Assembly: GCF_053078305.1 (NCBI RefSeq)
Contig: NZ_CP166879.1
Strand: one strand, 5' to 3'
DNA length: 64,000 nucleotides
Part shown: in pieces, positions 32,099-44,709 of the stretch
How positions within the stretch are numbered: the first letter of the stretch is position 1
How the letters are laid out: the number at the start of each line of letters is the position of its first letter
Translations under genes and position numbers: made by a program
Notes under the pieces: model-generated
What the model was told of the DNA's origin: nothing
The model's database searches: none
The model's input: only the letters and a program-made list of their open reading frames with translations

Positions 32099-32227
32099 TT
32101 ATGTCTATCATCTCCCCGTAGTTGTCCGCATCGTTCGCCAACTCCACTGAAACCCTTGCTGCGGCTGGAATGTCGTTTTCCATACTTTTGATGACCGTTC
32201 ATCACACTTCCAGGTTTTCGCGGTTTT

Positions 32228-32280
32228 GTGTATTGCAATGTGTATTGCAAATTGGCGATCGGGATGGGTGTGTATTGCAA
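32228..32280. repeat. GTGTATTGCAA repeats (candidate integrase arm-type sites, left arm)
   Basis: Three copies at 32228-38, 32240-50 and 32270-80. Two more lie at 43835-57 near the other end. Confidence 0.5.
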
Positions 32281-32298
32281 ATCTCTTGAGGGCTGTTA

Positions 32299-33540
32299 AT
32301 GGCTATTGAAAACAAACTCAGTGACAAACTGTTAAAGAGTCTTGTCGGAAAACGGCAGGACAAACAAAAAACAATAGCGGATGGGCGCGGGTTGTCTGTG
32401 CGTGTAAGCATGGTTGGGGGGATCAGCTTTGTTTTTTACTATCGTCTTGGTGGCAGGGAATCCCCTCCGGTATGGCTTACACTTGGGCGCTATCCTGATA
32501 TGTCTCTTGCAACAGCCAGGCGCATGCGTGATCAGTGCCGTGAGTGGCTGGCTGAAAATCTGGACCCCCGCAGGCAAATAAAACTTGCCGCCGAAAAAAC
32601 CATGCAACCAGTGACCGTAAGGGATGCGCTGTTTTACTGGTACGACAATCACGCCACAACAGCCAGAAAAGAGCATGAATATTTAATAAAACGATTTGAA
32701 AAGCATATCTTCCCCTATATCGGTGATATGGCTATAGAACAGTGCAAATTACACACATGGCTTGCCGTCTTTGACAGGATCAAAAAAAATGCGCCTGTTA
32801 TGTCTGGTGCAATTTTTCTTGATATCAAACAGGCGTTGCGTTTTTGTCGCGTCAGGCAATACATCGCGTGCGATCCCTTTGGCGATATTAACGTAAGTTA
32901 TGTCGGGCGCTCATCCGGTATAAGGGATCGCGTTCTTAATATCAATGAAACAGCGGATGTATGGTCTTATGCTTACGGTAATAATTTGCTGACACTGTCA
33001 TCAATACATAACAGAAGAATAATGGTTATCTGCCTGGTGTTTGGTTGCCGTCAGCAGGAGGCGAGGTTATCCACATGGGACGAATGGGATTTAAAAAACT
33101 GGGTATGGACAGTCCCAAAAGAGCACAGCAAAAACAAGGAGGCCATAGTAAGGCCTGTTCCTGACGGCATAAAACAATGGCTCGTTAATCTTTACGCAGA
33201 AACAAAAAATCGCGGTTATGTTGTCGGTTGTGCTTTGCAAAGGGCGACAATAACAGGGGCTGCAAACAGAATATGCAGGCGTCTTGGTCATGATATTAAT
33301 GGCTTGTGGTGCATACATGATTTCAGGCGCACATTTTCCACTGCGCTTAATGATATGGGGGCGGATCCTTATATTGTCGAACTTCTTTTAGGTCATAAAG
33401 TGAAAGGGGTTGCCGGTGTTTACAATAAAAGCAGGCATATAAAGAAAAAACTTGAGGTGCTTAATATGTGGGTTAATTACCTTAATACGATAGCAGGATT
33501 TAACAACAACGTTATCGAGCTTAATAAAGAGGTGGTGTGA
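32299..33540 (+). CDS. int: P4-type tyrosine integrase
   Basis: 413 aa. N-terminal KLSDKLLKSL...DGRGLSVRV...FVFYYRLGG (DUF4102-like arm-binding domain). C-terminal HDFRRTFST...LLGHKV..VAGVYN. Confidence 0.9.
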   Translation: MAIENKLSDKLLKSLVGKRQDKQKTIADGRGLSVRVSMVGGISFVFYYRLGGRESPPVWLTLGRYPDMSLATARRMRDQCREWLAENLDPRRQIKLAAEKTMQPVTVRDALFYWYDNHATTARKEHEYLIKRFEKHIFPYIGDMAIEQCKLHTWLAVFDRIKKNAPVMSGAIFLDIKQALRFCRVRQYIACDPFGDINVSYVGRSSGIRDRVLNINETADVWSYAYGNNLLTLSSIHNRRIMVICLVFGCRQQEARLSTWDEWDLKNWVWTVPKEHSKNKEAIVRPVPDGIKQWLVNLYAETKNRGYVVGCALQRATITGAANRICRRLGHDINGLWCIHDFRRTFSTALNDMGADPYIVELLLGHKVKGVAGVYNKSRHIKKKLEVLNMWVNYLNTIAGFNNNVIELNKEVV

Positions 33541-33541
33541 T

Positions 33542-33799
33542 ATGGCAATTTATTCTCTTGTTGATGAAAACGATTTGCGCACAATGAAGGACATTGATCG
33601 GTTCATTCGTGAAAAAGAGTGCATAGCACTTACCACGCTGGCAAACTCAACACGCTGGAAAATGGAGCAGGCAGGTAAATTCCCGCGACGTATCAAGATC
33701 GGTGAACGTGCGGCAGGGTATCGACTTTCAGAGGTTCAGGCATGGATCCGTGGTGAGTGGCATCCTGGATGGAAACCTGGAAAAACAAAACAGCAATAA
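33542..33799 (+). CDS. alpA: AlpA-family regulator/excisionase
   Basis: 85 aa with ...STRWKMEQAGKFPRRIKIGERAAGYRLSEVQAWI, the AlpA/Vis-type HTH. Directly after int. Confidence 0.75.
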   Translation: MAIYSLVDENDLRTMKDIDRFIREKECIALTTLANSTRWKMEQAGKFPRRIKIGERAAGYRLSEVQAWIRGEWHPGWKPGKTKQQ

Positions 33800-33812
33800 C
33801 CAGTAAATAACG

Positions 33813-33834
33813 CCCCTCATCAAGAGGGGTTTTT
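33813..33834 (+). terminator. Intrinsic terminator after alpA
   Basis: CCCCTC-ATCAA-GAGGGG followed by T5. Confidence 0.6.
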
Positions 33835-33853
33835 GTCTATAGGGTAAAACGCG

Positions 33854-34432
33854 ATGAATAAAAATATTGCCGTGACGGGCAAGGGGTACGCTCGTCCAGT
33901 GAAAAAATTCTGTGATATTCGTGATCTTGTCGTTCTGCGCTTTGATGGTGTGAGCGTTCGCGTGGTGTATGTGAACGGCGATCCGTGGTTTGTTGCCGTT
34001 GACGTGTGCGCTGCGCTGGAAATTGTTGATCACAAGGTTGCGTTACGCCGTCTCGATGATGATGAAAAGGGGGAGTGTTTAATACCCACCCCAGGTGGAA
34101 ATCAAACAATGCGAACGGTATGCGAGTCAGGGTTCTACAAACTAATCGCCAGAAGTCGGAAAGCTGTTACTCCTGGCACGTTCGCCCGTCGTTTCAGTAA
34201 CTGGGTATTCAGAAATGTGATACCAGGTATCAGAAAAACGGGGGCTTATGGTATCCCGTGGGGGGCATTACAGGATTTTTCCCGCCGTAAAGAGCAATAT
34301 CAAATAAGTGCCAGCGAGAAGGGGAGGGAGCTACAGGCATGTAAGCGCAAAAAACGTGAACTGGAGGAAGAAGAAAAAAGGCTGATACGTGAATATCAGC
34401 CTGAGTTTTACTTTGGTGAGCGTATTCAGTAA
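33854..34432 (+). CDS. BRO-N domain protein (antirepressor-like)
   Basis: ...LRFDGVSVRVVYVNGDPWFVAVDVCAALEI...GGNQTMRTVCESGFYKLIARSR, a Bro-N pattern. Confidence 0.65.
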   Translation: MNKNIAVTGKGYARPVKKFCDIRDLVVLRFDGVSVRVVYVNGDPWFVAVDVCAALEIVDHKVALRRLDDDEKGECLIPTPGGNQTMRTVCESGFYKLIARSRKAVTPGTFARRFSNWVFRNVIPGIRKTGAYGIPWGALQDFSRRKEQYQISASEKGRELQACKRKKRELEEEEKRLIREYQPEFYFGERIQ

Positions 34433-34770
34433 CCACACGCGGTGCTGATTATACGGTACATCGTGTTAACCGAGAAGCTACCCACCAGCAAGGCAAAATC
34501 TTCTGCTAAAAAATGACATATGGCCAGTCGTCCGGAAAGCATGAAATTTTACAAAAATGGAAAATGAAGATTTTTATTGTGCTGGTGGGTAAAAACAAAA
34601 AGCGCCCCGTTGCCGGAGCGCCCTTGTGAACAATTAACCTGCTGCGAAAAAATTGGATCAGTGCAGGGAAATTATATCAACTGTGTGAAGAAGCGCCACA
34701 ATTGCCAGTTTAGCTTTGCGGCGAACGCGTCAATAAAGAATATTCTTTCTTTAAATTCTGTTTGTGTATT

Positions 34771-34800
34771 TTTTCGTAGTTTTTCGTAGTTTTTCGTAAG
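34771..34800. repeat. Three tandem 10-bp repeats TTTTCGTAGT
   Basis: Exact 10-bp periodicity. The same CTACGAAA half site forms a palindrome at 43442-43458. Confidence 0.6.
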
Positions 34801-34895
34801 GAGAAAGAGCGGCGCGTATGCACCGCTAAGGAGTTTATTTTCATGACTTATGCAGCTTTCAATCTTAGCACCGCCGTAGCTGGTGGACAAGGCTA

Positions 34896-35123
34896 TCAGC
34901 CAGGCGGTCGGTTTTTAGTGGCTTTTAACCGCCGTGGGTATTTCTCGACAAAATCTTCAAGGGCAAATTTTTCTGGTGGCACTAAGCGCGGCGCTGGTGG
35001 TGGTATTTTTGTTCTGGTTAGTTCTTCCTCAAGTCTGGCGCAGGCTTCTAACTGCCTTTGCCGGATGATTTCATCATCTTGCGTTTGCGTGTCTTGTATT
35101 GGTGATAGTGTGTTGTTGGTCAT
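34896..35123 (-). CDS. Hypothetical protein (second gene of the leftward regulatory operon)
   Basis: 75-aa ORF downstream of the RHH gene. Confidence 0.4.
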   Translation of the reverse strand: MTNNTLSPIQDTQTQDDEIIRQRQLEACARLEEELTRTKIPPPAPRLVPPEKFALEDFVEKYPRRLKATKNRPPG

Positions 35124-35180
35124 GATACTGCCCTGTAAAGCAATGCGCCGGAGTACCTCACGCCACGGCGCTGATAGTGA

Positions 35181-35486
35181 TTATTCTGATTCTTGGGTCT
35201 TGCGACGCTGGAGTTCTTCGCGTGCAACGGTGACAAGTTGCCCGATTTCTTCCGCTGCTTTGATGCCGATTTGTTCGACCTTAGCCAGAGCATCCAGTGA
35301 AGACACAAGGGGATTTTCTCCGCTGCCTTCTGCCTGGCGGCGGGCGATTTCACCGCGCATGGCGGTTACTATGAATCCGGCGTTGCTTTCACCGTCCAGT
35401 TTTACGGATTCCATGCCTTCAATAACATCATGCGGGATCCGAGCTGTCAGTGATTGTGATTTTGCGTTTTTTGAACCTGTAGCCAT
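35181..35486 (-). CDS. Ribbon-helix-helix (Arc/CopG-like) regulator
   Basis: ATG at 35486 with RBS GAGAGGA. N-terminal KSQSLTARIPHDVIEGMESV beta-strand/helix pattern. Divergent from the rightward operon. Confidence 0.55.
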   Translation of the reverse strand: MATGSKNAKSQSLTARIPHDVIEGMESVKLDGESNAGFIVTAMRGEIARRQAEGSGENPLVSSLDALAKVEQIGIKAAEEIGQLVTVAREELQRRKTQESE

Positions 35487-35507
35487 CTGTAATCCTCTCA
35501 ATGAAAG

Positions 35508-35576
35508 TGTAAGACAATATACACATAAAAAGTCTTACATAAAAGCATTGACATGTAAGCCACCTATAAATAAAGT
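35508..35576. promoter_or_regulatory. Operator palindrome plus rightward promoter
   Basis: TGTAAGAC (35508-15) and GTCTTACA (35532-39) form an inverted repeat. TTGACA (35548-53), 17 bp, TAAAGT (35571-76). Confidence 0.45.
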
Positions 35577-35805
35577 TACTTACACCTTGTTAATGCAAGG
35601 TGCAGAAACGACGAAACCCGGCAGTGCGCTAACACTAACCGGGCTTCTAACCACCAACGATAGAAAGCGTATCGAGGTAGCTATGAGAAATCATACCACA
35701 CACCCGCAAGGGCGGGACTCGCACAACCTGAATAAATACATCTGGCGTTTTCTGGCCCGAAAAAACCAGTTGATCGCCAGTGTCGAAAATAGCTATGATT
35801 CCCGC

Positions 35806-35883
35806 GCACCTCATAAAACGGGTGCCGGGATTGGCGTCCTGGGCAAAACTGAAGCGCATAACACGCGCCCCGCGTGTTTTTTT
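35806..35883 (+). ncRNA. C4 / IsrK / P4-CI-like small RNA element in the island leader
   Basis: GCACC-TCATAAAACG-GGTGC; CCGGGA-TTGGCG-TCCTGG; ACACGCG-CCC-CGCGTGT plus T7. Loop 2 is complementary to ACGCCAA at 35963-69. Homologous to 6877-6801. Confidence 0.55.
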
Positions 35884-36045
35884 GTGCCGCATAGTCACAC
35901 CTTATCAATGGTGGGCTGTACGGGGGCGGAGCAATCCGCGCCGGTTTCTTCAGTGTCCGGTTACGCCAACCCTGTACAGTCCGCCACCAGCGAAATTGGC
36001 GTTTCCGGTGGCGGTTATCTTAACCACACTGAGGAGGCTGCCAAC

Positions 36046-36237
36046 ATGGCTACTATCCCTACCCTTGTACATTCTCAAACCGCCTTTCTCTGGCGCTTTA
36101 TCATCTTTGGCGCGTCAGACCATCAAATCATCCACGTCACCGCCTGGACGGAACGCGAAGCGCGTAGCCGTTGCCCGTCCGGTTGTGTTGCTGTATTCGC
36201 CGCCCGTATTCGTCAGGAGGTGTGCCATGTGCAATAA
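36046..36237 (+). CDS. Icd-like small protein (host cell-division inhibitor family of P1/P4-type elements)
   Basis: RBS GAGGAGG. MATIPTLVHSQTAFLWRF...VTAWTEREARSRCPSG... Has the same first 7 codons as the helper rha gene. Confidence 0.5.
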   Translation: MATIPTLVHSQTAFLWRFIIFGASDHQIIHVTAWTEREARSRCPSGCVAVFAARIRQEVCHVQ

Positions 36238-36484
36238 AACCACACCGGACGCAGCCGCCGCGCTCACTACACTGATGCACGCGCTGATTGATATTTCTGT
36301 TATTGCTGACAGGGCGCATAAGCACGCCACCAGTGAAACAGAATATGCCGGGGCTTTCGTTCCTCATTCGCTGGCGGTTATGCAACTTAGTGCTGATATG
36401 GCGCTGAATGAGGCCAAAGCTATCCTGATTTCTGATTGTGAAAATGGGGGGGGGTTATGCGTGATGATCGTTTTAATGCCCTGA
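36227..36484 (+). CDS. Hypothetical protein
   Basis: 85 aa, RBS AGGAGG. Overlaps the icd-like stop. Confidence 0.4.
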   Translation: MCNKTTPDAAAALTTLMHALIDISVIADRAHKHATSETEYAGAFVPHSLAVMQLSADMALNEAKAILISDCENGGGLCVMIVLMP

Positions 36485-36678
36485 AACAGGAGTTTGATGG
36501 TGCGCCTGATGATGCAGGTGATGCGCTTTCGTCAATATCCGAACTGATAAGAGTGGCCTTTTTCTTACTTGGCACGAAAGAATATAAATCAACTGGAATA
36601 GACGTACTGAATATTACTGCTGATTATGCGGAATATATGGCAGAAGTGGATTTAAGAAAGATAACGGACAGGGGGTAA
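36457..36678 (+). CDS. Hypothetical protein
   Basis: 73-aa coupled ORF. Confidence 0.4.
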   Translation: MRDDRFNALKQEFDGAPDDAGDALSSISELIRVAFFLLGTKEYKSTGIDVLNITADYAEYMAEVDLRKITDRG

Positions 36679-36679
36679 T

Positions 36680-36913
36680 ATGCGTGATATTTACCACGAA
36701 ACAATAGACCGCGCATTTAGTGCCCTTGCTTACGCTGAAGGTATGTACGAAATATTGCAAATGTGTCTGGAAACATTTGGCGATAATGAGCGTGATGTAA
36801 AGAAGGCGCGGATTATTAAATCACTGATAACTCTCCTTGAACCTGTAATAACAGAGTTGCAGGAAATAGACTTATTGCACGACAGATATAACGAACAGCA
36901 CACCGGAGAATAA
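36680..36913 (+). CDS. Hypothetical protein
   Basis: 77-aa coupled ORF. Confidence 0.4.
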   Translation: MRDIYHETIDRAFSALAYAEGMYEILQMCLETFGDNERDVKKARIIKSLITLLEPVITELQEIDLLHDRYNEQHTGE

Positions 36914-36918
36914 AAATA

Positions 36919-37218
36919 ATGAAACTTAAATATCCTGGCTTAACTGCCAGTGGCAACACTCACCCTAAATTTACGCGCGGTGATATTTACCGCGACCAGT
37001 ACGGCGGCACGGTAATGATTAAGGGCGTGGCGGGACGGTGCGTAACTTACCGCCGTGAAGGCTACGAATATGATTGCGTGATGCCTGTTTATCAGTTCCG
37101 GCGTGATTTTTCTCTGGTACAGACCGCGCCGCATAACGTGCCCACCAGCAACGCCAGGGCACGGGCAAACATCCAGAAGCTGAAAACCATGATTAACGGA
37201 TTCAGGGGTAAAAAATGA
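36919..37218 (+). CDS. Hypothetical protein
   Basis: 99-aa coupled ORF. Confidence 0.4.
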   Translation: MKLKYPGLTASGNTHPKFTRGDIYRDQYGGTVMIKGVAGRCVTYRREGYEYDCVMPVYQFRRDFSLVQTAPHNVPTSNARARANIQKLKTMINGFRGKK

Positions 37219-38624
37219 AACTGGCACCGAACGTAAAACGATTACCGAAAGATAAATACACCGAAGCGGTTATTTTTGCGGGTATTGATGCTCACTCATT
37301 CGCAGAGCATTACATCATTGCACAGGCCAAAAAAGCAGGCGATCCAGTCCCTCCCGTTTATCTGGGGCGTTATCAGTTAAGCGAACTGGATAACCTCCAG
37401 ATTGTTGATGATGGGCGATACAGGGCGACGGTGATACGCGCCGGAAATATTGAAGAGCCGCAGCTGTTAACCATCGCCACGAAACTGGCGAGCGCCGGAG
37501 TCCAGGAGGCGCGGCTACTTTCTGAAAATTTCGAATTGCTGGAGGAATGGAGCGACCAGCTTCCACGGCTTAGGGAGGCATGGGAACGCGGGGAAAGCCT
37601 GGTCATGAAAAAAATTCCCCAGCGAAAAACCACGCTACCGATGAGCGTTGGATCTACCGGATACGACACACAGCTTGATTACGTGGTAAAGGGGATTATT
37701 CCGGCATCGTCGCTTTGCAGCATATACGGGGCGAGCGGTTCCTATAAATCATTCCTTGCCGGATCGTGGGCGTGTCACGTTTCCACGGGCCGCCAGTGGG
37801 GAGGCCGCAGGGTGGCGCATGGCGCTGTTCTCTATGTGGTTGGTGAAGGCGGTATCGGCGTTCCGCGTCGTGTAAAAGCCTGGGAGGTTGTGCACGGTGA
37901 GCAGGTGAAAAATCTGTATCTGGTAAACCGTCCCATCTTTCCGGCTGTCCCGCTTGATGTTGATGAACTGGTTATTGCTGCCAGTCAGGTGGAGAGGGAA
38001 ACGGGTAAACCTGTTCGCATGATTATTCTGGACACGCTGGCGCGTTGCTTTGGCGGCAATGATGAAAATGACTCCCGCGACATGGGGGCATTTATCCGTG
38101 GTTGTGACGAGCTTAAACGGCGCACAGGGGCTACGGTGCTGGTGGTTCACCATTCCGGCAAGGATGAAACAAAGGGGGCGCGTGGTTCCAGTGCATTTCG
38201 TGCATCACTGGACGCTGAATACCGGATACGCAGGGAGGACGCAGGAAGCGAAGCGCTGGTTATCTCATGCACCAAAATGAAGGACGCGGAGGAACTCAAA
38301 GAGGCTGCCTATGATTTGCGGGTGGTGGAGCTTTTTACCGACGCTGACGGGGAGTTAATTACGTCGCTGGTGGTGGTGGATAAGCCGCGCCCTCCCGTTG
38401 AACTGGAGCGCATCGAGGAGGCAGGCAACAAGACGGAAAACCATACCGCGCTATGGGGGTGCATCCGTTCACGCACACAGAACGGCGACAAGTGCACGAT
38501 CCCGCTGTTACGTGACGATATGAAAAAGCTGGGGTATGACACAAAACACCTTAAACGATGGTTAGCCAAACTGGAAAAAGACGACGTGATCTACATTGAC
38601 GGTGATGATGTAGGACCACTGTAA
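37215..38624 (+). CDS. Replication protein with RepA/AAA_25-type RecA-fold ATPase domain
   Basis: Walker A-like YGASGSYKSF, MIILDTLARCFGG..ENDSRDM and LVVHHSGKDETKGARGSSA motifs typical of RepA-like helicases. Iterons follow. Confidence 0.65.
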   Translation: MKLAPNVKRLPKDKYTEAVIFAGIDAHSFAEHYIIAQAKKAGDPVPPVYLGRYQLSELDNLQIVDDGRYRATVIRAGNIEEPQLLTIATKLASAGVQEARLLSENFELLEEWSDQLPRLREAWERGESLVMKKIPQRKTTLPMSVGSTGYDTQLDYVVKGIIPASSLCSIYGASGSYKSFLAGSWACHVSTGRQWGGRRVAHGAVLYVVGEGGIGVPRRVKAWEVVHGEQVKNLYLVNRPIFPAVPLDVDELVIAASQVERETGKPVRMIILDTLARCFGGNDENDSRDMGAFIRGCDELKRRTGATVLVVHHSGKDETKGARGSSAFRASLDAEYRIRREDAGSEALVISCTKMKDAEELKEAAYDLRVVELFTDADGELITSLVVVDKPRPPVELERIEEAGNKTENHTALWGCIRSRTQNGDKCTIPLLRDDMKKLGYDTKHLKRWLAKLEKDDVIYIDGDDVGPL

Positions 38625-38825
38625 AAAGTGGGCATTAAAAGTGGGAAAGGTGGGCGATTTAACGTAATTTTAACAAAATCACCCACTTTCCCACGTGTAT
38701 ATATCCCAAAAAGTGGGCACTAAAAAAATACCTATGAAACAAGATGATATAAATCCCAAACTTCCCACGTTGGACGAAGTGGGAAAACGTAAAAAGTGGG
38801 CGAAAAAAGTGGGTAGAGGTGGGCG
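38620..38825. repeat. Island ori candidate: AAAGTGGG iterons
   Basis: At least 8 direct (A/G)GTGGG copies (38627, 38640, 38649, 38712, 38778, 38795, 38808, 38818). Inverted copies at 38682-94 and 38764. Located directly 3' of rep. Confidence 0.6.
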
Positions 38826-38826
38826 A

Positions 38827-39078
38827 ATGACTCAAAAACACAGAGACAGAACAGAGCCAAAATATAAAGCGTTAGACATGACAGAGCACGCTTTAAAGGT
38901 GGCAATCAGGGTAATAGACCGCCACACGCGGGAAGGATACGCGAAGGAACATCCCGACCTGATAAGCGCATTCATGACCACAGCGGCGGCAAACTTTGCC
39001 ACGCTGACAGAACGGGAGATAGCCGAAGCGGAACAGGTAACAACCATCAACGTTAAAACCGGAGAGGTGGAATCATGA
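38827..39078 (+). CDS. Hypothetical protein
   Basis: 83 aa from the ATG at 38827. Longer starts (38695 GTG) would read through the iterons. Confidence 0.35.
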   Translation: MTQKHRDRTEPKYKALDMTEHALKVAIRVIDRHTREGYAKEHPDLISAFMTTAAANFATLTEREIAEAEQVTTINVKTGEVES

Positions 39079-39485
39079 CAGCACAGATAGCCGCTTACGG
39101 GCGGCTGGTGGACGACCCGCAGGTAAAACAAACCAGCAAGGGCACACCGATGACGCTGGCGCGTATGGCGGTATCTCTGCCATGCAGCCAGGCACAGGAC
39201 GGGCAGGCTACGTTATGGCTATCAGTGATGGCATTTGGTAAGCAGGCCGACTTCCTGGCTAAACATCAAAAAGGCGATGTTGCCAGCGTATCCGGCACGA
39301 TGCAGGTAAGCCAGTGGACCAGACAGAACGGGGAAACGCGGCAGGGTTATCAGGTTATTGCAGACAGTGTAATCAGTGCCCGTGCTGCCCGTCCTGGCGG
39401 GAGCAGACGTACAACCACAGGCACACAGGGTAATCAGCCACCAGCGGGAGGCGATGACCCTTACGGTGACGGTATTCCGTTCTGA
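39075..39485 (+). CDS. ssb: Single-stranded DNA-binding protein
   Basis: OB-fold N-terminus, Gly/Pro-rich linker and an acidic tail DDPYGDGIPF. Confidence 0.8.
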   Translation: MTAQIAAYGRLVDDPQVKQTSKGTPMTLARMAVSLPCSQAQDGQATLWLSVMAFGKQADFLAKHQKGDVASVSGTMQVSQWTRQNGETRQGYQVIADSVISARAARPGGSRRTTTGTQGNQPPAGGDDPYGDGIPF

Positions 39486-39495
39486 GGGGGTGACG

Positions 39496-39768
39496 ATGGT
39501 ACATGACCGCATAGCGGAGGAACTCGAGGCAAAAGGCTTTTACCGGAGGGCGGCGGCGCGATGGGGTGAAGTTATGCAGCTGGTGGAGACAGACAAGGAA
39601 CGGCATCAGGTTACGATGCGACGGCTGGAATGTTCCAGGAAGGCACAGAGGCCACCGGAGCCGCCGGATAACTTCGGAGACCTGAAAAAAGCAGTAGATC
39701 GCACTTATGCCGAAATGGGTATGGATGGTGTAAGCGATGAAATATGGCGTAATTACCCAGACAGCTAA
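39496..39768 (+). CDS. PerC-like transcriptional activator
   Basis: MVHDRIAEELEAKGFYRRAAARWGEVM.. resembles the recalled PerC-family N-terminus. Confidence 0.45.
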   Translation: MVHDRIAEELEAKGFYRRAAARWGEVMQLVETDKERHQVTMRRLECSRKAQRPPEPPDNFGDLKKAVDRTYAEMGMDGVSDEIWRNYPDS

Positions 39769-39774
39769 TCAACA

Positions 39775-39796
39775 GCCGGAGAAATCCGGCTTTTTT
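39775..39796 (+). terminator. Intrinsic terminator
   Basis: GCCGGAGAAATCCGGC plus T6, identical to the hairpin at 42049-42071. A second hairpin lies at 39810-39845. Confidence 0.65.
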
Positions 39797-40007
39797 GTAC
39801 CCAAAAAAAGCCCGATAAGTACAGGAGGCATCTTATCGGGCTTTTGCATATGAGGTTTTTTTGGTGCACTGACACACATGATCGGGGTAATCATTTCATA
39901 ATTTGCAACACAACTCAACATCATTGCACAAAATGCAATCCTGATTATAATCAGAGCTGGATGAACATCCAGTTCTGATTTTTTAAGTCAAAGAGGAATT
40001 TCTTACT

Positions 40008-40214
40008 ATGGCTGAAGAGAAAAAAGGCGGTGTTTCGGTGTACATAAGCCCCGAAATCGTGGAGGTGCTCAAGCAGCGCCACAAAAAAAACTATGAGGCT
40101 GGCGTAGCGGCTGGACTGGATCCGCTGATGACGCCGGAGCCGTCGATAGGTTCACTTGTGCGCTCTTATTTACTTGCGGCGCTTGGGATGCATAAAAATT
40201 ATGGTGGTGAATAA
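40008..40214 (+). CDS. Hypothetical small protein, first gene of the island head operon
   Basis: 68 aa, RBS AAGAGGA. Stop overlaps the capsid-gene start. Confidence 0.4.
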   Translation: MAEEKKGGVSVYISPEIVEVLKQRHKKNYEAGVAAGLDPLMTPEPSIGSLVRSYLLAALGMHKNYGGE

Positions 40215-41269
40215 TGACAGTAAAAGCAATGGCACTTACAACTAACCAGCTTTTCGCGTACCTGAATCGCGGGGATATTGCAGAATTTAAATTCAGTCCG
40301 CTGTTTACCACGCTGTTTTTCCCGAACGTGGCGACCTTCAACACCCAGAACATCATGCTGGACACCCTGGACATTGAAGAGGTTACGATGTCAGCGTTCT
40401 GTTCGCCTATGGTGGGTAGTCAGGTCCAGCGCGATAAAGGGTACGAAACCAGCACGATTAAACCAGGCTACATGAAACCCAAACACGAAATCGATCCAAC
40501 AAAAACCATCATGCGCATGGCTGGAGAAGATCCGGCACAGCTTAACGACCCTACCTACCGCCGTATGCGCCTGATTACTGGCAACATGCGCCGCCAGATA
40601 AACGCCATTAAAGCGCGCGTGGAATGGCTGGCGGTGAATGCGATAACGACCGGAAAAAACATCATTGAGGGCGAAGGCATAGAACGCTATGAAATCGACT
40701 GGAAAATACCGGAAAACTGCATCATAGAGCAGGCCAAGGGTAAAAAATGGTCCGAGCATGATAAAGATATTTACGATCCAATCTATGACATCGAACTATA
40801 CGCAGATCAGGCAGGTTGCCCCGCCAACGTCATGATTATGGGCGCTGAGGTATGGCGCACGTTACGCAGCTTTAAAAAATTCCGCGAACTGTACGATCTT
40901 TCCCGTGGTTCAGAATCCGCCGCAGAACTGGCCTGTAAAAACCTGGGTGAAGTAGTGAGCTTTAAAGGCTATCTGGGCGATATTGCCCTTATCGTCTATT
41001 CCGGCAAATACACTGACAGCGACGGTACCGAAAAATATTTCCTTGAGCCTGATTTGCTGGTCCTGGGTAACACCAACAATAAAGGGCTGGTGGCCTATGG
41101 TGCGATTATGGATCAGGAAGCGGTAAGAACGGGCGCAACGCAAAACATGTTCTACCCGAAAAACTGGATTGAAGACGGCGATCCGGCGATTGAGTACGTT
41201 CAGACGCACAGCGCACCGCAGCCGGTACCGGCAGATATTCGCAAATTTGTTACCGTCAAAATTGCTTAA
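40214..41269 (+). CDS. Lambda gpE-family major capsid protein paralogue (E')
   Basis: 351 aa. Shares PGY.KPKHE, GEDPAQLNDP.YRR, VVSFKGY.GD, DGTEK, YPK.W and GDPA.E blocks with helper E (46646-47674). Confidence 0.85.
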   Translation: MTVKAMALTTNQLFAYLNRGDIAEFKFSPLFTTLFFPNVATFNTQNIMLDTLDIEEVTMSAFCSPMVGSQVQRDKGYETSTIKPGYMKPKHEIDPTKTIMRMAGEDPAQLNDPTYRRMRLITGNMRRQINAIKARVEWLAVNAITTGKNIIEGEGIERYEIDWKIPENCIIEQAKGKKWSEHDKDIYDPIYDIELYADQAGCPANVMIMGAEVWRTLRSFKKFRELYDLSRGSESAAELACKNLGEVVSFKGYLGDIALIVYSGKYTDSDGTEKYFLEPDLLVLGNTNNKGLVAYGAIMDQEAVRTGATQNMFYPKNWIEDGDPAIEYVQTHSAPQPVPADIRKFVTVKIA

Positions 41270-41280
41270 CGGGGGATTCT

Positions 41281-41616
41281 ATGGACACTCCATACATTGA
41301 GTTATTTGCAGGCAGTCAGCAGGTATCCACGACGCTGGTACATTTTGCCGCTGATGCTGGCGTTATTCAGGAATTTACCCCGCTGATGCTGGCGGACAAT
41401 GGCGAGTTTAAGCCGTGGGATGGTCAGGAATCTGGCAAGGCTGTTTATCTGACCTCGTACCCCGTGGACACGTCAAAGCAGAAATCAGCACAGTGTTACA
41501 AGACGGGGATATTTAATATCGCCGCCGTAAACTGGCCTGAGAGCGCCGACACTGACGCGAAAAAATGCGCCGCCTTTGCGGGTTCTGGCGTATCCGTTCA
41601 GCCGCTGGCGCGATAA
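41281..41616 (+). CDS. Lambda gpD-family head decoration protein paralogue (D')
   Basis: 111 aa. Shares TPLML, WDGQ, YK.G.F, WPES and AF.G blocks with helper D. Confidence 0.75.
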   Translation: MDTPYIELFAGSQQVSTTLVHFAADAGVIQEFTPLMLADNGEFKPWDGQESGKAVYLTSYPVDTSKQKSAQCYKTGIFNIAAVNWPESADTDAKKCAAFAGSGVSVQPLAR

Positions 41617-41628
41617 GCAGGGGAAACG

Positions 41629-42042
41629 ATGGCAACGAATGAAAGCATCATGGCGCTACCGCTGGCGAGTAAATTTAAAGCAGAAGCGCGGGCAATGGCT
41701 GACAGAGGTTTATCAACCTACGAGGCCGTATATCAACTCAACAAACTGGAAGAGCAGGACAAGCCGCGCGCTGATGCGATTATGGCGCTTCATGAACATA
41801 ACGACTATCAGCCGCTGTTACGTGCAATGGCAAACGTGCCATGTATTAGCGTCGATAATGCTCGTGAAATCCTGAACATGACCATAGAGCAGGAGCGCCC
41901 AAAGGTTGCGCCGGAGCTTACCGCAGCCTTTGAAAACTTTATGGACATGCACAGCCCGAAAGCCGTATCACCCGGCATGGCATACGACGGCAGAAACCAG
42001 GGCGATGAAGGCGACGTCGATCGCATACTGAAAACCATCTGA
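41629..42042 (+). CDS. Nu3-like scaffolding protein (Nu3')
   Basis: The tail LTAAFENFMDMHSPKAVSPG...GDEGDVDRIL parallels the helper gpC tail TTALFEHFMANHSPAAVQGG...GDADVKML. Also IMALHE...ISVDNAREIL versus IMALDE...MTVESARAVL. Confidence 0.65.
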   Translation: MATNESIMALPLASKFKAEARAMADRGLSTYEAVYQLNKLEEQDKPRADAIMALHEHNDYQPLLRAMANVPCISVDNAREILNMTIEQERPKVAPELTAAFENFMDMHSPKAVSPGMAYDGRNQGDEGDVDRILKTI

Positions 42043-42048
42043 CATAAG

Positions 42049-42071
42049 GCCGGAGAAATCCGGCTTTTTTT
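42049..42071 (+). terminator. Intrinsic terminator abutting the island cos
   Basis: GCCGGAGAAATCCGGC plus T7. Confidence 0.65.
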
Positions 42072-42073
42072 AC

Positions 42074-42140
42074 GGGTCCTTTCCGGCATATGGACCCGTT
42101 ACGGGGCGGCGACCTCGCGGTTTTTCGCTATTTATGAGCT
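42074..42140 (+). promoter_or_regulatory. Island cos site 2 (same orientation as helper cos)
   Basis: 42074-42120 is identical to helper 28457-28503, including GGGCGGCGACCT (42104-42115). The downstream cosB-equivalent is different. Confidence 0.85.
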
Positions 42141-42248
42141 TTTTTCGGGTGCTGGTGGTGGTTTTGTTGTTCGCTCTATCTCTATGAATAAAAAGGGAAA
42201 GATAAAACCAATACACCAACCTGAAACATTACTTAAGTGGGGATATTG

Positions 42249-42791
42249 ATGAAATCGCACCTGATGAACAAAAAAAACATGGCGCAAAGCTGCCGTGTAA
42301 GTGCGACAGCGTTCGACAAGTGGGGAGTGACTCCCGTTGAACGTAAAGGACGCGAGGCTTTTTACGATGTTGCCAGCGTGATAGACAATCGGGTAAGCAA
42401 TGCAATTAACCAGGTTACAAACGACAAAGGCGAGATTGATGATGATGAACTCTTACGAGTCAGGATCAGATTACTGACCGCCCAGGCTGAGGCGCAGGAA
42501 CTTAAAAACGAGCGCGATCGCGGTGACGTAATTGATACTGAGTTTTGCCTGTACGCGCTTTCAAAGCTGGCGAGTCAGATTTCTTCAATCATGGACAGTT
42601 TGCCGCTTACCATGCAAAGGCGCTTCCCGCAGATTACTCCCGCTATGCTGGATGGGCTTAAAAGGGAAGTGGTTAAAGCCTGTAATGCCAGTGCCACAGT
42701 TGCCGACAACCTCCCGAAGATACTGGCTGATTACCTGATGGAAACTACCGGAGACGTACCGGAGAAGTTGCTACAGAAGAAAGGCGAGTAA
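42249..42791 (+). CDS. Nu1-family terminase small subunit paralogue (TerS')
   Basis: N-terminal MNKKNMAQSCRVSATAFDKWGV resembles lambda Nu1 (VNKKQLADIFGASIRTIQNW). The C-terminal FCLYALSKLASQISSIMDSLPLTMQRRFPQI..ILADYL parallels the helper TerS. Start 42237, 42249 or 42264. Confidence 0.8.
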   Translation: MKSHLMNKKNMAQSCRVSATAFDKWGVTPVERKGREAFYDVASVIDNRVSNAINQVTNDKGEIDDDELLRVRIRLLTAQAEAQELKNERDRGDVIDTEFCLYALSKLASQISSIMDSLPLTMQRRFPQITPAMLDGLKREVVKACNASATVADNLPKILADYLMETTGDVPEKLLQKKGE

Positions 42792-42940
42792 CAGACGCGC
42801 AATTATTGAACAAAAGTAAGGCCCGACATGAAATCACCCAAAAATGCCTTTTTCATGCGTTTGTATGTCTGACCTTTTACGGTTTCGATATTATAAAAAA
42901 CAAATAGTTACGCTCGAGAGGTACCGACACGCATTTTTCA

Positions 42941-43014
42941 GGAAAATTTTCATAAACAGATAAAAACCGCGAGGTCGCCGCCCCGTAACGGGCCATAATT
43001 CCAGGAAGGACCCG
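42941..43014 (-). promoter_or_regulatory. Island cos site 3 (inverted, diverged flanks)
   Basis: Reverse complement reads GGGTCCTTCCTGGAATTATGGCCCGTTACG-GGGCGGCGACCT-CGCGGTTTTTATCTGTTTATGAAAATTTTCC. The core lies at 42972-42983. Confidence 0.8.
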
Positions 43015-43047
43015 ACGACACCAGGCTATCAGAACGATGAGGGCACA

Positions 43048-43329
43048 ATGACAGAAGCCGAACTACTGGGATTAATCCGCTACGTTACCGGAATCAGCCA
43101 GCAGCATGACGAACAGGCCACGCAGCCGGACAGCGTGACCGCTGAAAATTATGCGCGTGTTGTTGCTGAGGTGATGCGCCGTGATGGTATCCAGCTTAAT
43201 GATGCAGATATGCGCGACATACGGATCCGCGTTCTTGAAATGCTGGCCTACCGTCGCCGCGTGCAGACGTACAGGGAAAAAGCAAAAATAACGTACCAGT
43301 GGAAGAAGCCGGAGCGATTACGGCGGTAA
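43048..43329 (+). CDS. Hypothetical protein
   Basis: 93-aa ORF, last gene before the right arm. Confidence 0.4.
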   Translation: MTEAELLGLIRYVTGISQQHDEQATQPDSVTAENYARVVAEVMRRDGIQLNDADMRDIRIRVLEMLAYRRRVQTYREKAKITYQWKKPERLRR

Positions 43330-43441
43330 CTTGCTGATATTCCCGATAACGCAAAATTGCGCTCTGTCCTAACCCGTTGATATTTTCGGGAACAGCCAAC
43401 GGCTGAGGCCGGAACAACGATTATCTTTCAGATAGTCAGAG

Positions 43442-43458
43442 CTACGAAATTTTCGTAG
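43442..43458. repeat. Palindrome CTACGAAA-T-TTTCGTAG
   Basis: Perfect 8+1+8 inverted repeat of the half site that is repeated at 34771-34800. Confidence 0.6.
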
Positions 43459-43724
43459 TTTAATTACTCGCCAGTTTATCGTTAACTCGTTGATATTTTC
43501 GGTAACCTCAATTTGAGGAGATCGGAAACATAACCCTTCACATTCTGAATGGTTATAATGACCACTCAGACCATCAAGGCAACCATAACGAACATCGTTA
43601 CGGTTGGAGCTTTTACCCCACTGGGGGGAAGGTGCACATCTGGATCATCATTACCGTGATCAAGGGTATGTAAAACCCACCAGCCTGATTAACTGTTAAC
43701 CGGAAAAAAGCCAGGTAGCCAATC

Positions 43725-43748
43725 TCGATATGGGGATCCCCATATCGA
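43725..43748. repeat. 24-bp perfect palindrome TCGATATGGGGATCCCCATATCGA
   Basis: Read directly from the sequence, in the ORF-free right arm. Confidence 0.6.
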
Positions 43749-43834
43749 CATTAACGCCCCCTAGAACTGCGCATATCTGCATATAAAAACATCCACCAGC
43801 TTTATGACGGATGCCGCTCATCTGATAAATAATC

Positions 43835-43857
43835 GTGTATTGCAATGTGTATTGCGA
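43835..43857. repeat. GTGTATTGCAA repeats (right arm)
   Basis: GTGTATTGCAA at 43835-45 and GTGTATTGCGA at 43847-57. Confidence 0.5.
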
Positions 43858-43929
43858 CTCCTTTAAACGATAGGTTTGAGCATTCGTAATGTACTGTTTT
43901 TAAATTTTATTTTTTCCTGTCTTTTCATA

Positions 43930-44709
43930 AAAGCCATGTATGCAGCGACGATTGAAAGTGAACTTGATACCGAAAAGGCCTTTGAATATATCGCCGGTGC
44001 GCCGCAGGGGCAGAAGGATAATCCGCTTATTAATATTCTGGATAAGTTCTCCACCTGGTATGACACGAATATCGTGACGCTGGGCGGTGTCAAAATTCCG
44101 CACCTTTTCCCCGGTGATGATCTGAAACTTCAGACCGCGCAGGATTCAGACAATGGATTTTCGGCGCTTGAACAGGCGCTGCTGCGGTATATCGCCGCCG
44201 GTCTTGGCGTTTCCTACGAACAGTTGTCCCGTGATTACTCGAAGGTCAGTTATTCAAGTGCCCGCGCCTCCGCCAATGAGTCGTGGCGCTATTTTATGGG
44301 ACGACGAAAATTTATTGCAGCCCGGCTGGCCACGCAGATGTTTTCCTGCTGGCTGGAAGAGGCACTTCTTCGGGGGATTATCCGTCCGCCACGGGCACGT
44401 TTTGATTTTTATCAGGCGCGTTCAGCCTGGTCGCGGGCAGAGTGGATTGGCGCAGGAAGAATGGCCATTGACGGGCTCAAGGAGGTCCAGGAATCAGTGA
44501 TGCGCATTGAGGCCGGACTGAGCACGTATGAGAAAGAGCTGGCGCTGATGGGTGAGGATTATCAGGACATTTTCCGCCAGCAGGTCAGGGAATCCGCAGA
44601 GCGGGAAAAAGCCGGACTCTCACGTCCGGTGTGGATAGCGCAGGCGTATCAGCAGCAGATAGCAGAGAGCCGCAGGCCGGAAGAGGAGACAACACCACGT
44701 GAGACGTAA
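43930..44709 (+). pseudogene. B: Portal protein gpB, 3' part
   Basis: KAMYAATIESELD...LLRYIAAGLGVSYEQLSR...ARASANESWRYFMGRRKF...GAGRMAIDGLKEVQE is collinear with the recalled lambda B C-terminal half. Codons upstream of 43930 are island DNA. Confidence 0.9.

What the first reader, a model, noticed from the sequence alone, without database searches (positions are those of the whole stretch)
42249..42791. Island TerS looks chimeric: a helper-like TerL-interaction half with a different DNA-recognition half
Seen: the C-terminal halves of helper TerS and island TerS' align well. Helper: LIDTGFCIFALSKLAMALSSTLDSIPLSMQRQFPDLTPRHLDHLK...LPDLLDEYI. Island: VIDTEFCLYALSKLASQISSIMDSLPLTMQRRFPQITPAMLDGLK...LPKILADYL. 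The N-terminal HTH parts are unrelated. The helper has TQTEVARHLSLTDRQLRRLQKL. The island has NKKNMAQSCRVSATAFDKWGV, which resembles lambda Nu1 itself. Established: the Nu1 N-domain binds the cosB R sites and the C-terminal part binds gpA. Inference: TerS' could recruit helper TerL to the island cosB, competing with helper TerS. This is a different solution from the Rpp adaptor described for E. coli PICIs.
Basis: partly seen in the sequence, partly recalled or inferred. Interest (0 to 1): 0.65.

Follow-up and report, generated by a model that had tools for sequence, protein, structure and literature searches.

The report
Satellite's own lambda-type small terminase
A small phage-parasite island, inserted in the portal gene of a lambda-like prophage, carries its own DNA-recognition subunit of the packaging enzyme beside its own packaging site; this is a common but untested way for such islands to get packaged, and not a one-off chimera made from this helper.

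Summary
The ORF at 42249-42791 (180 aa) and the helper TerS (28682-29191) align only over their C-terminal 115 aa (48% identity, E=6e-33).

"Chimeric" is only partly right. TerS' is a full-length Nu1-family small terminase. Its N-terminal DNA-binding domain is N15-type: 63% identical to N15 gp1, 33% to lambda Nu1, 10% to the helper. Its C-terminal part is a satellite-lineage module, closest to the PhiR5_1/helper type (56%/51%) and further from lambda/N15 (40-41%).

Mixing of DNA-binding domains and C-terminal modules occurs across the whole family. The helper TerS has the unusual N-terminus. The clear recombinant is a sister allele, P0100.

TerS' lies between two inverted cos sites, in the slot that RppA occupies in the model island EcCICFT073. 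cos1 carries a conserved GT-rich element at the R3 position that resembles R3 of N15. cos2 is a phage-21-type cos.

The gene is under purifying selection (dN/dS 0.10-0.17). It occurs in 762 of 5426 complete E. coli genomes, against 97 for rppA.

Most likely mechanism: TerS' binds cos1 and recruits helper TerL. This is the SaPI TerS strategy in a cos/lambda setting. The mechanism is inferred and has not been shown.

The parts
28450..28640 (+). Helper prophage cos. cosQ-like GGGTCCTTTCC; cosN GGGCGGCGACCT at 28487-28498; cosB with three exact CCGGACATG R-boxes at 28536-28544 (-), 28596-28604 (+) and 28626-28634 (+).
   Evidence: Sequence read. Motif scan: the exact copies occur only here in the 64 kb window.
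28682..29191 (+). Helper TerS, 169 aa, Nu1 family, with a third type of N-terminal DNA-binding domain.
   Evidence: (99.4% identical to PhiR12_1/2 Nu1).
29163..31091 (+). Helper TerL (gpA homologue). Its N-terminal 48 aa are 65% identical to PhiR5_1 TerL, 54% to lambda and 46% to phage 21.
31278..32103 (+). 5' part of the helper portal gene (gpB homologue). It is interrupted at the attL core AAAGCCATTTATG (32091-32103).
   Evidence: blastn against the intact PhiR12_1 portal gene: nt 1-826 match at 97.8%.
32104..43929 (+). ~11.8 kb helper-embedded PICI-type satellite. Genes: int 32299-33540, alpA-like 33542-33799, RepA-type helicase 37215-38624, SSB 39075-39485, PerC 39376-39768, gpE-like capsid 40214-41269, gpD-like decoration 41281-41616, Nu3/scaffold-like 41629-42042, TerS' 42249-42791, 93-aa ORF 43048-43329.
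   Evidence: Same gene order as EcCICFT073 and the island in RM14516.
42073..42144 (+). Island cos1, forward orientation: cosQ-like GGGTCCTTTCC and cosN GGGCGGCGACCT (42104-42115). The stretch GGGTCCTTTCCGGCATATGGACCCGTTACGGGGCGGCGACCTCGCGG is identical to the helper's. This is the left arm of a 72-nt inverted repeat.
   Evidence: I1: 82% complementary.
42154..42171 (+). Candidate TerS' binding site in cosB1: GGTGGTGGTTTTGTTGTT, bp 51-68 counted from the first base of cosN. It is conserved in all satellites examined whose TerS has an N15-type DNA-binding domain. It shares the GTTGTT core with R3 of N15 (bp 48-59, GAGGTTGTTGTT).
   Evidence: R3-N15 position from PMC4669245.
42249..42791 (+). 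TerS' (the finding), 180 aa: N15-type winged-HTH domain (~1-50), long helical linker, C-terminal satellite-lineage module (~93-180).
42795..43014 (-). Island cos2, inverted orientation: cosN at 42972-42983 on the minus strand, a cosQ-like element distal to it, and a phage-21-type cosB (R3, I1, R2, R1) between cosN and the terS' stop codon.
   Evidence: 81.1% identity over 171 nt to phage 21 cos, M81255 nt 161-331, whose annotated features are R1, R2, I1, R3, I2 and cosN. Also.
43930..44709 (+). attR core AAAGCCATGTATG (43930-43942) and the 3' part of the helper portal gene.
   Evidence: blastn against the PhiR12_1 portal gene: nt 814-1593 match at 96.9%.

Best explanation
The window holds a PhiR12-like lambdoid prophage whose portal gene is split by an ~11.8 kb helper-embedded PICI-type satellite. 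TerS' is the satellite's own Nu1-family small terminase subunit. It belongs to a packaging cassette with the layout cosQ/cosN - cosB1 - terS' - cosB2 - inverted cosN/cosQ.

Proposed mechanism:
1. The N15-type winged-HTH domain of TerS' binds the GT-rich R3-like element in cosB1.
2. Its C-terminal module binds the N-terminus of the helper's TerL.
3. The helper nuclease/motor is thereby positioned on the satellite's cosN, whose sequence is the same as the helper's.
4. Satellite concatemers are cut and packaged into helper-made heads, without needing the helper's TerS.
5. By consuming TerL, this would also compete with helper packaging.

This is the SaPI 'own TerS, borrowed TerL' strategy carried out with a cos/lambda-type terminase. 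It sits in the same slot that Rpp occupies in EcCICFT073.

Shown here: family membership, anatomy, the [cosB + DNA-binding domain] pairing exchanged as one block (one clear swap), selection and distribution. Inferred: DNA binding at cosB1, TerL binding and competition.
For: - Full-length Nu1/phrog_57 membership, and collinearity with N15 gp1 (46% over residues 1-158) and lambda Nu1 (36%).
- The DNA-binding domain is homologous to the lambda-type winged HTH.
- The gene lies ~150 bp downstream of a cosN identical to the helper's, the canonical cos-Nu1 layout.
- cosB1 differs from the helper cosB. There is no exact helper R-box in the island.
- The cosB1 element GGTGGTGG(T/G)(T/G)TTGTT is conserved at bp 51-68 in E. 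coli and Enterobacter-type satellites with an N15-type domain. It shares its core with R3-N15 (PMC4669245).
- In islands whose TerS (P0100) has a PhiR5_1/21-type domain, cosB1 is a PhiR5_1/21-type R-box cosB. The cosB and the DNA-binding domain therefore swap as one unit.
- The C-terminal module aligns with the TerL-binding region of the family. It is nearest the PhiR5_1/helper type, and TerL N-termini sort into the same three types.
- The island's cos2 is 21-type and does not match this helper's cosB, so cos1/TerS' is the plausible route with this helper.
- dN/dS is 0.10-0.17 overall and at or below 0.25 in every third of the gene, with dS up to 0.65.
- The cassette is present in 762 of 5426 complete E. 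coli genomes.
- All close homologues whose context was checked lie in satellites without a terL gene.
- Lab chimeras with swapped cosB + domain and a constant C-terminus are functional (PMC4669245).
Against: - There is no experimental or structural evidence here for TerS'-TerL binding.
- The last ~31 aligned residues are only 39% identical to the helper TerS, and TerS' has a 13-aa C-terminal extension absent from phage TerS.
- The excess C-terminal similarity to the helper type (51-56% against 40-41%) rests on 75 positions and a handful of reference phages.
- The cosB1 element lies 6-9 bp further from cosN than R3-N15, and cosN-R3 spacing is critical in lambda (PMC4669245).
- The AlphaFold model is poor (pLDDT 62.5, pTM 0.27).
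- In EcCICFT073 the helper TerS is strictly required (PMC6092414, PMC6739421), so a TerS-dependent mode cannot be excluded for this island either.
Confidence: 0.55

Rival explanations
1. TerS' works like Rpp. It forms mixed oligomers with the helper's TerS. The mixed complex loses affinity for the helper cosB and gains affinity for cosB1, while TerL is brought in by the helper TerS subunit or by both subunits.
For: TerS' occupies exactly the rppA slot between cos1 and the inverted cos2. The RppA winged HTH also matches the TerS family profile (phrog_57, E=3.9e-8). The region of highest TerS'-helper identity is residues 88-131 (59%), which corresponds to the self-association region of Nu1 rather than the extreme TerL-binding tail. 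The helper TerS is required for EcCICFT073 transfer (PMC6092414).
Against: TerS' shows no sequence similarity to RppA or RppC. Rpp proteins are 139-154 aa and lack the TerL-binding C-terminus (PMC9026076), whereas TerS' retains it under purifying selection. Rpp heterodimerises by mimicking the lambda-type DNA-binding domain and helix alpha3, but this helper's domain is of a different type, 10-12% identical to that of TerS'.
Confidence: 0.2
2. TerS' is dispensable or a captured relic. The island is packaged because it carries phage-type cos sites read directly by helper terminase: cos2, or the shared cosQ/cosN.
For: cos2 is a complete phage-type cos. Related islands carry cos2 variants matching other phage cosB types, including this helper's type in EcCICFT073. 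The 21-type R boxes (CATGTCGG) resemble the helper R box (CATGTCCGG).
Against: There is strong purifying selection on all parts of terS'. The gene is retained intact at 180 aa in hundreds of genomes. cosB1 is swapped together with the TerS domain in the P0100 allele, and in the islands checked each domain type has its matching cosB1. This island's cos2 does not match this helper's cosB type.
Confidence: 0.12
3. One reading: a recent chimera in which the island fused the helper's own TerL-binding half to a foreign DNA-binding domain.
For: The C-terminal halves align at 48%. The N and C halves have different nearest phage relatives.
Against: Identity to the helper is only 51% in the C-module, against 97-100% between satellite alleles. 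The same C-module, at 90-97% identity, occurs in islands at the chromosomal roxA/phoQ site, unlinked to this helper. In a library clustered at 50% identity, the nearest non-satellite relatives are at or below 49% identity.
Confidence: 0.03

Closest known systems
Phage N15 gp1 (TerS) with its simple cosB (single R3)
   Same: Closest phage protein: 46% identity over residues 1-158 and 63% in the DNA-binding domain. A GT-rich site near the R3 position shares the GTTGTT core. There are no obvious R2/R1/IHF-type repeats in cosB1.
   Different: The N15 C-terminal module is lambda-type (84% identical to lambda). That of TerS' is only 41% identical to N15 and is nearest the PhiR5_1/helper type. N15 gene 1 overlaps its terL gene, whereas TerS' has no terL partner. 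The site is 6-9 bp further from cosN. No rR2-like inverted copy was found inside terS'.
RppA/RppC of EcCICFT073-type PICIs (PMC6739421, PMC9026076)
   Same: Same island family and the same slot, directly downstream of cos1 and upstream of an inverted cos2. Both have an N-terminal winged HTH related to the TerS DNA-binding domain. Both are presumed to redirect packaging to an island-specific cosB.
   Different: No pairwise sequence similarity. TerS' is 180 aa and has the family's C-terminal TerL-binding region. Rpp is 139-154 aa, lacks that region and depends on the helper TerS. The terS' cassette is about eight times more frequent than rppA in complete E. coli genomes.
SaPI-encoded small terminase TerS_S (pac SaPIs; Ubeda 2007, as cited in PMC6739421)
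   Same: A satellite encodes only a TerS homologue, has its own packaging site and uses the helper's TerL. PICI TerS is treated as a core component that redirects packaging (bioRxiv 10.1101/2022.09.14.508007).
   Different: The SaPI system is headful (pac), and its TerS is presumably of a different family (not compared here). Here the system is cos-type with a Nu1-family TerS, and cosN/cosQ are shared with the helper. No Ppi-like partner was identified.
Laboratory chimeric terminases lambda-21 hy51 and lambda-N15 hy4 (PMC4669245)
   Same: A [cosB + TerS N-terminal domain] block is exchanged while the TerL-binding C-terminus is kept. This is the pattern seen between TerS' and its sister allele P0100.
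   Different: Those are engineered or selected phage hybrids. Here the exchange is natural and lies in a satellite that lacks terL.
Helper-embedded PICIs (HE-PICI/HES; PMC10111431)
   Same: [quoted passage not shown]
   Different: The described model 11capE, like EcCICFT073, lacks terS. The paper does not discuss Nu1-type TerS.

Membership tests
Lambda-type small terminase (Pfam PF07471 Phage_Nu1; PHROG phrog_57) | Significant match to the family profile | tested here: met
   PF07471: 84.9 bits against a cutoff of 30. phrog_57: E=1.3e-51, covering residues 1-173.
Lambda-type small terminase (Pfam PF07471 Phage_Nu1; PHROG phrog_57) | N-terminal winged helix-turn-helix DNA-binding domain homologous to that of Nu1 | tested here: met
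   hhalign of the island/N15-type N-terminal profile against the lambda/21-type profile: probability 96%, E=3.8e-9, 54 columns. The AF2 secondary structure (beta-alpha-alpha-beta-beta-alpha) fits the fold, but the model is of low confidence (pLDDT 62.5) and Foldseek hits are weak: TerS domain 7lwr with TM 0.73 over 51 columns, E=0.04.
Lambda-type small terminase (Pfam PF07471 Phage_Nu1; PHROG phrog_57) | C-terminal segment equivalent to the TerL (gpA)-binding domain | tested here: met
   Residues 132-162 align without gaps to the C-terminal ~31 residues of lambda, N15, 21, PhiR5_1 and helper TerS. The LP..L.(D/E)Y(L/I) motif is shared only with the helper, PhiR5_1, lambda and N15, not with 21. 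Binding itself is not testable here.
Lambda-type small terminase (Pfam PF07471 Phage_Nu1; PHROG phrog_57) | Gene lies just downstream of cosN-cosB | tested here: met
   cosN at 42104-42115; terS' starts at 42249.
Lambda-type small terminase (Pfam PF07471 Phage_Nu1; PHROG phrog_57) | Followed by, and overlapping, a cognate terL gene | tested here: not met
   There is no terL in the island. Downstream lie the inverted cos2 and a 93-aa ORF. The same holds in related islands. TerS' is an orphan TerS.
PICI / helper-embedded PICI satellites | Integrase, AlpA and replication module, ~10-15 kb, mostly unidirectional, with no tail or lysis genes | tested here: met
   Same gene order as EcCICFT073.
PICI / helper-embedded PICI satellites | [quoted passage not shown] | tested here: met
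   The portal gene is split at nt 814-826. The 13-bp core AAAGCCAT(T/G)TATG is present at both junctions.
PICI / helper-embedded PICI satellites | Helper-dependent induction, packaging and transfer | not testable with these tools
   Requires induction and transfer experiments.
Rpp (redirecting phage packaging) proteins | Sequence homology to RppA/B/C | tested here: not met
   BLASTP against RppA: E=1.3. phmmer against PDB, which should hold RppC, finds nothing at E<=1.
Rpp (redirecting phage packaging) proteins | 139-154 aa, lacking the TerS C-terminal TerL-binding region (PMC9026076) | tested here: not met
   TerS' is 180 aa and has the aligned C-terminal region.
Rpp (redirecting phage packaging) proteins | Encoded directly downstream of the island cos1 | tested here: met
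   Same position as rppA (L004:7660-8094) in EcCICFT073.
Rpp (redirecting phage packaging) proteins | Binds helper TerS to form a heterocomplex | not testable with these tools
   Needs an interaction assay.
SaPI-type satellite TerS strategy (functional analogy, not homology) | Satellite encodes a TerS but no TerL, and has a packaging site distinct from the helper's | tested here: met
   No terL in the island. cosB1 differs from the helper cosB, and the island has no exact helper R-box.
SaPI-type satellite TerS strategy (functional analogy, not homology) | Satellite TerS complexes with helper TerL | not testable with these tools
   Only indirect support: TerS C-terminal types co-vary with TerL N-terminal types.

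The most novel reading that the evidence does not exclude
The cos1-terS'-cos2 segment may be a self-contained, two-way, exchangeable packaging cassette.

- cos1 is read by the satellite's own TerS', which needs only a compatible helper TerL.
- The inverted cos2 mimics a phage cosB so that a different helper's native terminase can also package the island.
- The cassette swaps [cosB + DNA-binding domain] blocks with phages while keeping a satellite-specific C-terminal module.
- It flips between orientations through its inverted cosQ/cosN repeats. This could happen by recombination, or by terminase cutting at both cosN sites followed by re-joining, since the internal fragment would carry two identical cohesive ends.

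Rpp would then be one derived occupant of this slot, and TerS' the commoner one.
Probability: 0.3. Interest if true: 0.6.

Novelty: new member of a known kind. Interest (0 to 1): 0.4.

Why it matters
In the papers read here, the one experimentally dissected packaging-redirection mechanism for the E. coli PICIs packaged by lambda-type cos phages is Rpp (other E. coli islands, the capsid-forming PICIs, use their own terminase). In complete E. coli genomes the terS'/cosB1 cassette is about eight times more frequent than rppA: 762 against 97 of 5426 genomes, including O157:H7, O145 and O111 strains.

If TerS' recruits helper TerL directly, the helper range of these islands depends on TerL compatibility, not on the helper's TerS. 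Phage escape mutations would then map to TerL rather than TerS. The system would also be a natural experiment on how the DNA-recognition and TerL-binding modules of lambda-type terminases are re-paired.

If TerS' acts like Rpp instead, it would link Rpp evolutionarily to full-length TerS.

Tried and rejected
- A PDB sequence search with TerS' and with the downstream 93-aa ORF found nothing at E<=1. Neither protein is Rpp or a close relative of the solved Nu1 domain.
- BLASTP of TerS' against RppA found no similarity.
- The AlphaFold2 model of TerS', built from a 21-sequence alignment, has low confidence (pLDDT 62.5, pTM 0.27). Foldseek against PDB gave no hit at E<=0.001, only weak winged-HTH, TerS-domain and MerR-like hits to the N-terminal ~50 residues. 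I used it only as weak support.
- I looked inside terS' for an N15-style rR2, an inverted second copy of the R3-like element. None was convincing.
- I looked in the island for helper-type R boxes (CCGGACATG). There were no exact copies. One 1-mismatch copy lies in cos2 R1.
- The promoter/terminator scan of 41500-43500 flagged only the cosN palindromes. It missed the visible hairpin GCCGGAGAAATCCGGCTTTTTTT at 42049-42070.
- The whole island is not present at 80% coverage or more in RefSeq complete E. coli genomes or in INPHARED phages. The source genome was not identified.
- I considered a recent chimera derived from this helper and rejected it on the identity values.
- I did not test whether TerS' C-tail alleles correlate with helper TerL type across many helper-embedded composites. 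The TerL gene lies beyond the retrievable flanks.

Full report
**Context**

The window is a lambdoid prophage. From cos through TerS, TerL, W and the portal gene it is about 98% identical to phage PhiR12_1.

Its portal gene is split. Nucleotides 1-826 of the PhiR12_1 portal gene match window 31278-32103, and nucleotides 814-1593 match 43930-44709. A 13-bp identity block, AAAGCCAT(T/G)TATG, is present at both junctions.

The ~11.8 kb between the junctions encodes:
- a P4-type integrase and an AlpA-like protein;
- a RepA/AAA_25 helicase, SSB and PerC;
- a gpE-like capsid protein and a gpD-like decoration protein;
- a 137-aa protein resembling the scaffold end of gpC;
- the ORF of the finding and a 93-aa ORF.

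This is the 'helper-embedded PICI' configuration described by Tommasini, Mageeney and Williams, who list sites in gpB cognates (PMC10111431). The late zone has the same gene order as the model island EcCICFT073.

**Checking the observation**

BLASTP gives one strong alignment: helper 54-168 against island 54-167, 48% identity, E=6e-33. The first ~50 residues do not align. Both proteins pass Pfam Phage_Nu1.

**Is TerS' a chimera with a helper-like half?**

Three results qualify this reading.

First, TerS' is collinear with ordinary phage TerS proteins over its whole length. tblastn aligns residues 1-158 with N15 gp1 at 46% identity, and residues 1-161 with lambda-type Nu1 at 36%.

In a seven-protein alignment, identities of TerS' to reference proteins are as follows:

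| Region of TerS' | N15 | lambda | phage 21 | PhiR5_1 | helper |
|---|---|---|---|---|---|
| N-terminal domain (1-46) | 63% | 33% | 28% | 30% | 10% |
| C-terminal 75 aligned positions (88-162) | 41% | 40% | 35% | 56% | 51% |

The DNA-binding domain is therefore N15-type, not 'lambda itself'. The C-terminal half is nearest the helper/PhiR5_1 type, but only moderately so.

Second, the helper TerS is the odd one. It aligns with lambda, N15, 21 and Pseudomonas TerS only over its C-terminal ~90-115 residues, at 40-47% identity. It aligns at full length only with PhiR12 phages (99%) and distantly with Aeromonas phages. A C-terminal-only match is therefore what this helper protein gives with almost every family member.

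Third, the N-termini are not unrelated folds:
- island/N15-type against lambda/21-type profile: 96% probability, E=3.8e-9;
- helper-type against lambda/21-type profile: 92% probability, E=8e-7;
- helper-type against island-type directly: no detectable match.

Both proteins match PHROG phrog_57 end to end.

**Mosaicism is nevertheless real, across the family**

N15 gp1 combines the N15-type domain with a C-terminus 84% identical to lambda's.

Cluster representatives show all three domain types joined to different C-modules.

The clearest recombinant is a sister allele, P0100. Its first ~110 residues are PhiR5_1-type (90% identity). Its last ~85 residues are virtually identical to TerS', with the crossover at VIDTGFCL|YALSKLAS.

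At the DNA level, window 42480-42815 is 94% identical to the P0100 gene, while cosB1 and the 5' two-thirds of the gene do not match.

The P0100 islands have a PhiR5_1/21-type R-box cosB in cos1. So [cosB + DNA-binding domain] moves as a block onto a constant satellite C-terminal module. This is the natural counterpart of the functional laboratory hybrids lambda-21 hy51 and lambda-N15 hy4 (PMC4669245).

When only the C-module was searched against 1.84 billion cluster representatives, the nearest non-satellite relatives were at or below 49% identity. The module is a satellite lineage, not a copy of a helper.

**Anatomy of the packaging cassette**

- cos1. Upstream of terS' lies a cos whose cosQ-like and cosN sequences are identical to the helper's over 47 nt. 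The match ends a few bases beyond cosN, and the cosB region is different.
- cos2. Downstream, in inverted orientation, is a second cos. It is 81% identical over 171 nt to phage 21 cos, including its annotated R1, R2, I1 and R3.
- The two cos sites form a 72-nt inverted repeat.
- EcCICFT073 has the same layout, with rppA in place of terS'. That agrees with the published cos1 and cos2 (PMC6092414, PMC6739421).
- cos2 differs between islands. It is 21-type here. In EcCICFT073 it is exactly this window's helper type, with CCGGACATG R boxes. In RM14516 and the P0100 islands it is a third type with lambda-like architecture.
- The helper's R box occurs exactly three times in the window, all in the helper cosB. 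With this helper, cos1 plus TerS' is therefore the plausible route.

**The candidate TerS' site**

In all satellites examined whose TerS has the N15-type domain, cosB1 carries GGTGGTGG(T/G)(T/G)TTGTT at bp 51-68 from cosN. This holds for the E. coli islands and for Enterobacter/Citrobacter-type islands embedded in gene E.

R3 of N15 is GAGGTTGTTGTT at bp 48-59 (PMC4669245; verified).

The shared core and similar position fit a cognate pairing of domain and site. The 6-9 bp offset is a caveat.

**Function and constraint**

Eight terS' alleles give dN/dS of 0.10-0.17, with dS up to 0.65. Every third of the gene is constrained. The C-terminal third changes fastest in amino-acid terms.

All close homologues whose context was inspected lie in satellites without a terL gene, at the roxA/phoQ site or embedded in prophage gene E.

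The cosB1 + terS' segment is in 762 of 5426 complete E. coli genomes. The equivalent rppA segment is in 97.

TerL N-termini (residues 1-48) sort into the same three types as TerS C-termini: lambda with N15 (75% identity), helper with PhiR5_1 (65%), and 21 apart. The TerS' C-module falls nearest the helper/PhiR5_1 type. This is indirect support for TerL matching. In the last 31 aligned residues, however, TerS' is only 39% identical to the helper.

**Mechanism**

The best-supported reading is that TerS' binds cosB1 through its N15-type winged HTH, and brings helper TerL to the shared cosN through its C-terminal module. This is the SaPI 'own TerS, borrowed TerL' logic in a cos system.

The main rival is Rpp-like mixing with the helper TerS. 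It is suggested by the shared slot, and by the fact that identity to the helper peaks in the presumed self-association region (59% over residues 88-131). Neither model can be decided without interaction assays.

**What is already known**

- PICI small terminases are treated as a core PICI component that redirects packaging (bioRxiv 10.1101/2022.09.14.508007).
- Fillol-Salom et al. noted terS homologues in some Gram-negative PICIs (PMC6092414).
- Reviews of satellite packaging strategies list helper-cos carriage, SaPI TerS plus Ppi, Rpp and capsid-forming PICIs, but not a Nu1-type TerS in E. coli islands.
- Four of the full-text searches were aimed at this; none turned up a functional study of it.

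I therefore file it as a new, uncharacterised member of a known kind. It is not a new principle.

Noticed in passing
L007 5784-6807, L009 5784-6807 and L008 5784-6807 (PICIs at the roxA/phoQ site). The equivalent window segment is 42073-43014.: The ~1 kb cos1-terS-cos2 segment occurs in both orientations relative to the rest of the island. In L008, terS is co-oriented with the capsid genes. In L007 and L009 it is inverted. The internal segment is 99% identical forward-to-forward, while the flanks align in reverse. The breakpoints fall in the ~80-bp inverted cosQ/cosN repeats. This suggests a naturally invertible packaging cassette.
   Followed up: partly
P0100 (TerS of L007-L009) compared with window 42249-42791: P0100 is a clear natural recombinant. 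It joins a PhiR5_1/21-type N-terminal ~110 aa and a PhiR5_1/21-type cosB1 to a C-terminal ~85 aa essentially identical to TerS'. The crossover is at VIDTGFCL|YALSKLAS.
   Followed up: yes
window 42795-42971; L004 8095-8297 (EcCICFT073 cos2); L002 and L008 cos2: The inverted cos2 carries a different phage-type cosB in different islands. It is phage-21-type here. In EcCICFT073 it is this window's helper (PhiR12) type, with CCGGACATG boxes. In RM14516 and the P0100 islands it is a third type with lambda-like architecture (R = CAGATCC). cos2 looks like a swappable mimic of helper cos sites.
   Followed up: partly
window 42154-42162, compared with L004 7613-7621 (EcCICFT073 cos1, bp 55-63 from cosN): The TerS'-type cosB1 has GGTGGTGGT at bp 51-59. 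The Rpp-type cos1 has its reverse complement, ACCACCACC, at bp 55-63. Murialdo and Feiss report that stretch as identical in four Rpp islands (PMC9026076). This could be chance in a triplet repeat, or a shared site in opposite orientation.
   Followed up: no
window 41629-42042: The 137-aa ORF upstream of cos1 resembles the C-terminal scaffold (Nu3-like) end of the helper's gpC: 35% identity over 83 aa, E=2e-9. It also hits the C-terminal end of the PHROG head-maturation-protease profile. With its gpE-like and gpD-like genes, the island therefore encodes capsid, decoration and scaffold homologues, but no portal, protease domain or TerL.
   Followed up: partly
E. coli genome collection: cosB1 + terS' (window 42140-42800) is found at 80% coverage or more in 762 of 5426 complete E. 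coli genomes. The rppA segment of EcCICFT073 is found in 97. The experimentally studied Rpp islands are the minority type.
   Followed up: yes
window 34996-35013: There is a second, 2-mismatch copy of the cosB1 element: GGTGGTGGTATTTTTGTT against GGTGGTGGTTTTGTTGTT. About 0.1 such matches are expected by chance in the window. It lies in the island's early/regulatory region, antisense to a small ORF with a PPP stretch. Its significance is unknown.
   Followed up: no
window 32228-32248 and 43835-43855: A perfect 21-nt direct repeat, GTGTATTGCAATGTGTATTGC, lies just inside both ends of the island, with further TGTGTATTGCA copies at 32239 and 32269. It probably corresponds to the 'doubled motif' of HE-PICI attP regions, that is, integrase arm sites (PMC10111431).
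   Followed up: no
window 38621-38813: Three or more AAAAAGTGGGC repeats, spaced 83-85 bp apart, lie directly downstream of the RepA-type helicase gene. This is where PICI replication origins are reported (PMC6092414).
   Followed up: no
window 39775-39796 and 42049-42070: An identical 22-nt terminator-like hairpin, GCCGGAGAAATCCGGCTTTTTT, occurs twice: after the PerC gene and after the 137-aa gene just before cos1. terS' would therefore need read-through (for example Q-antiterminated helper late transcription) or its own promoter.
   Followed up: no
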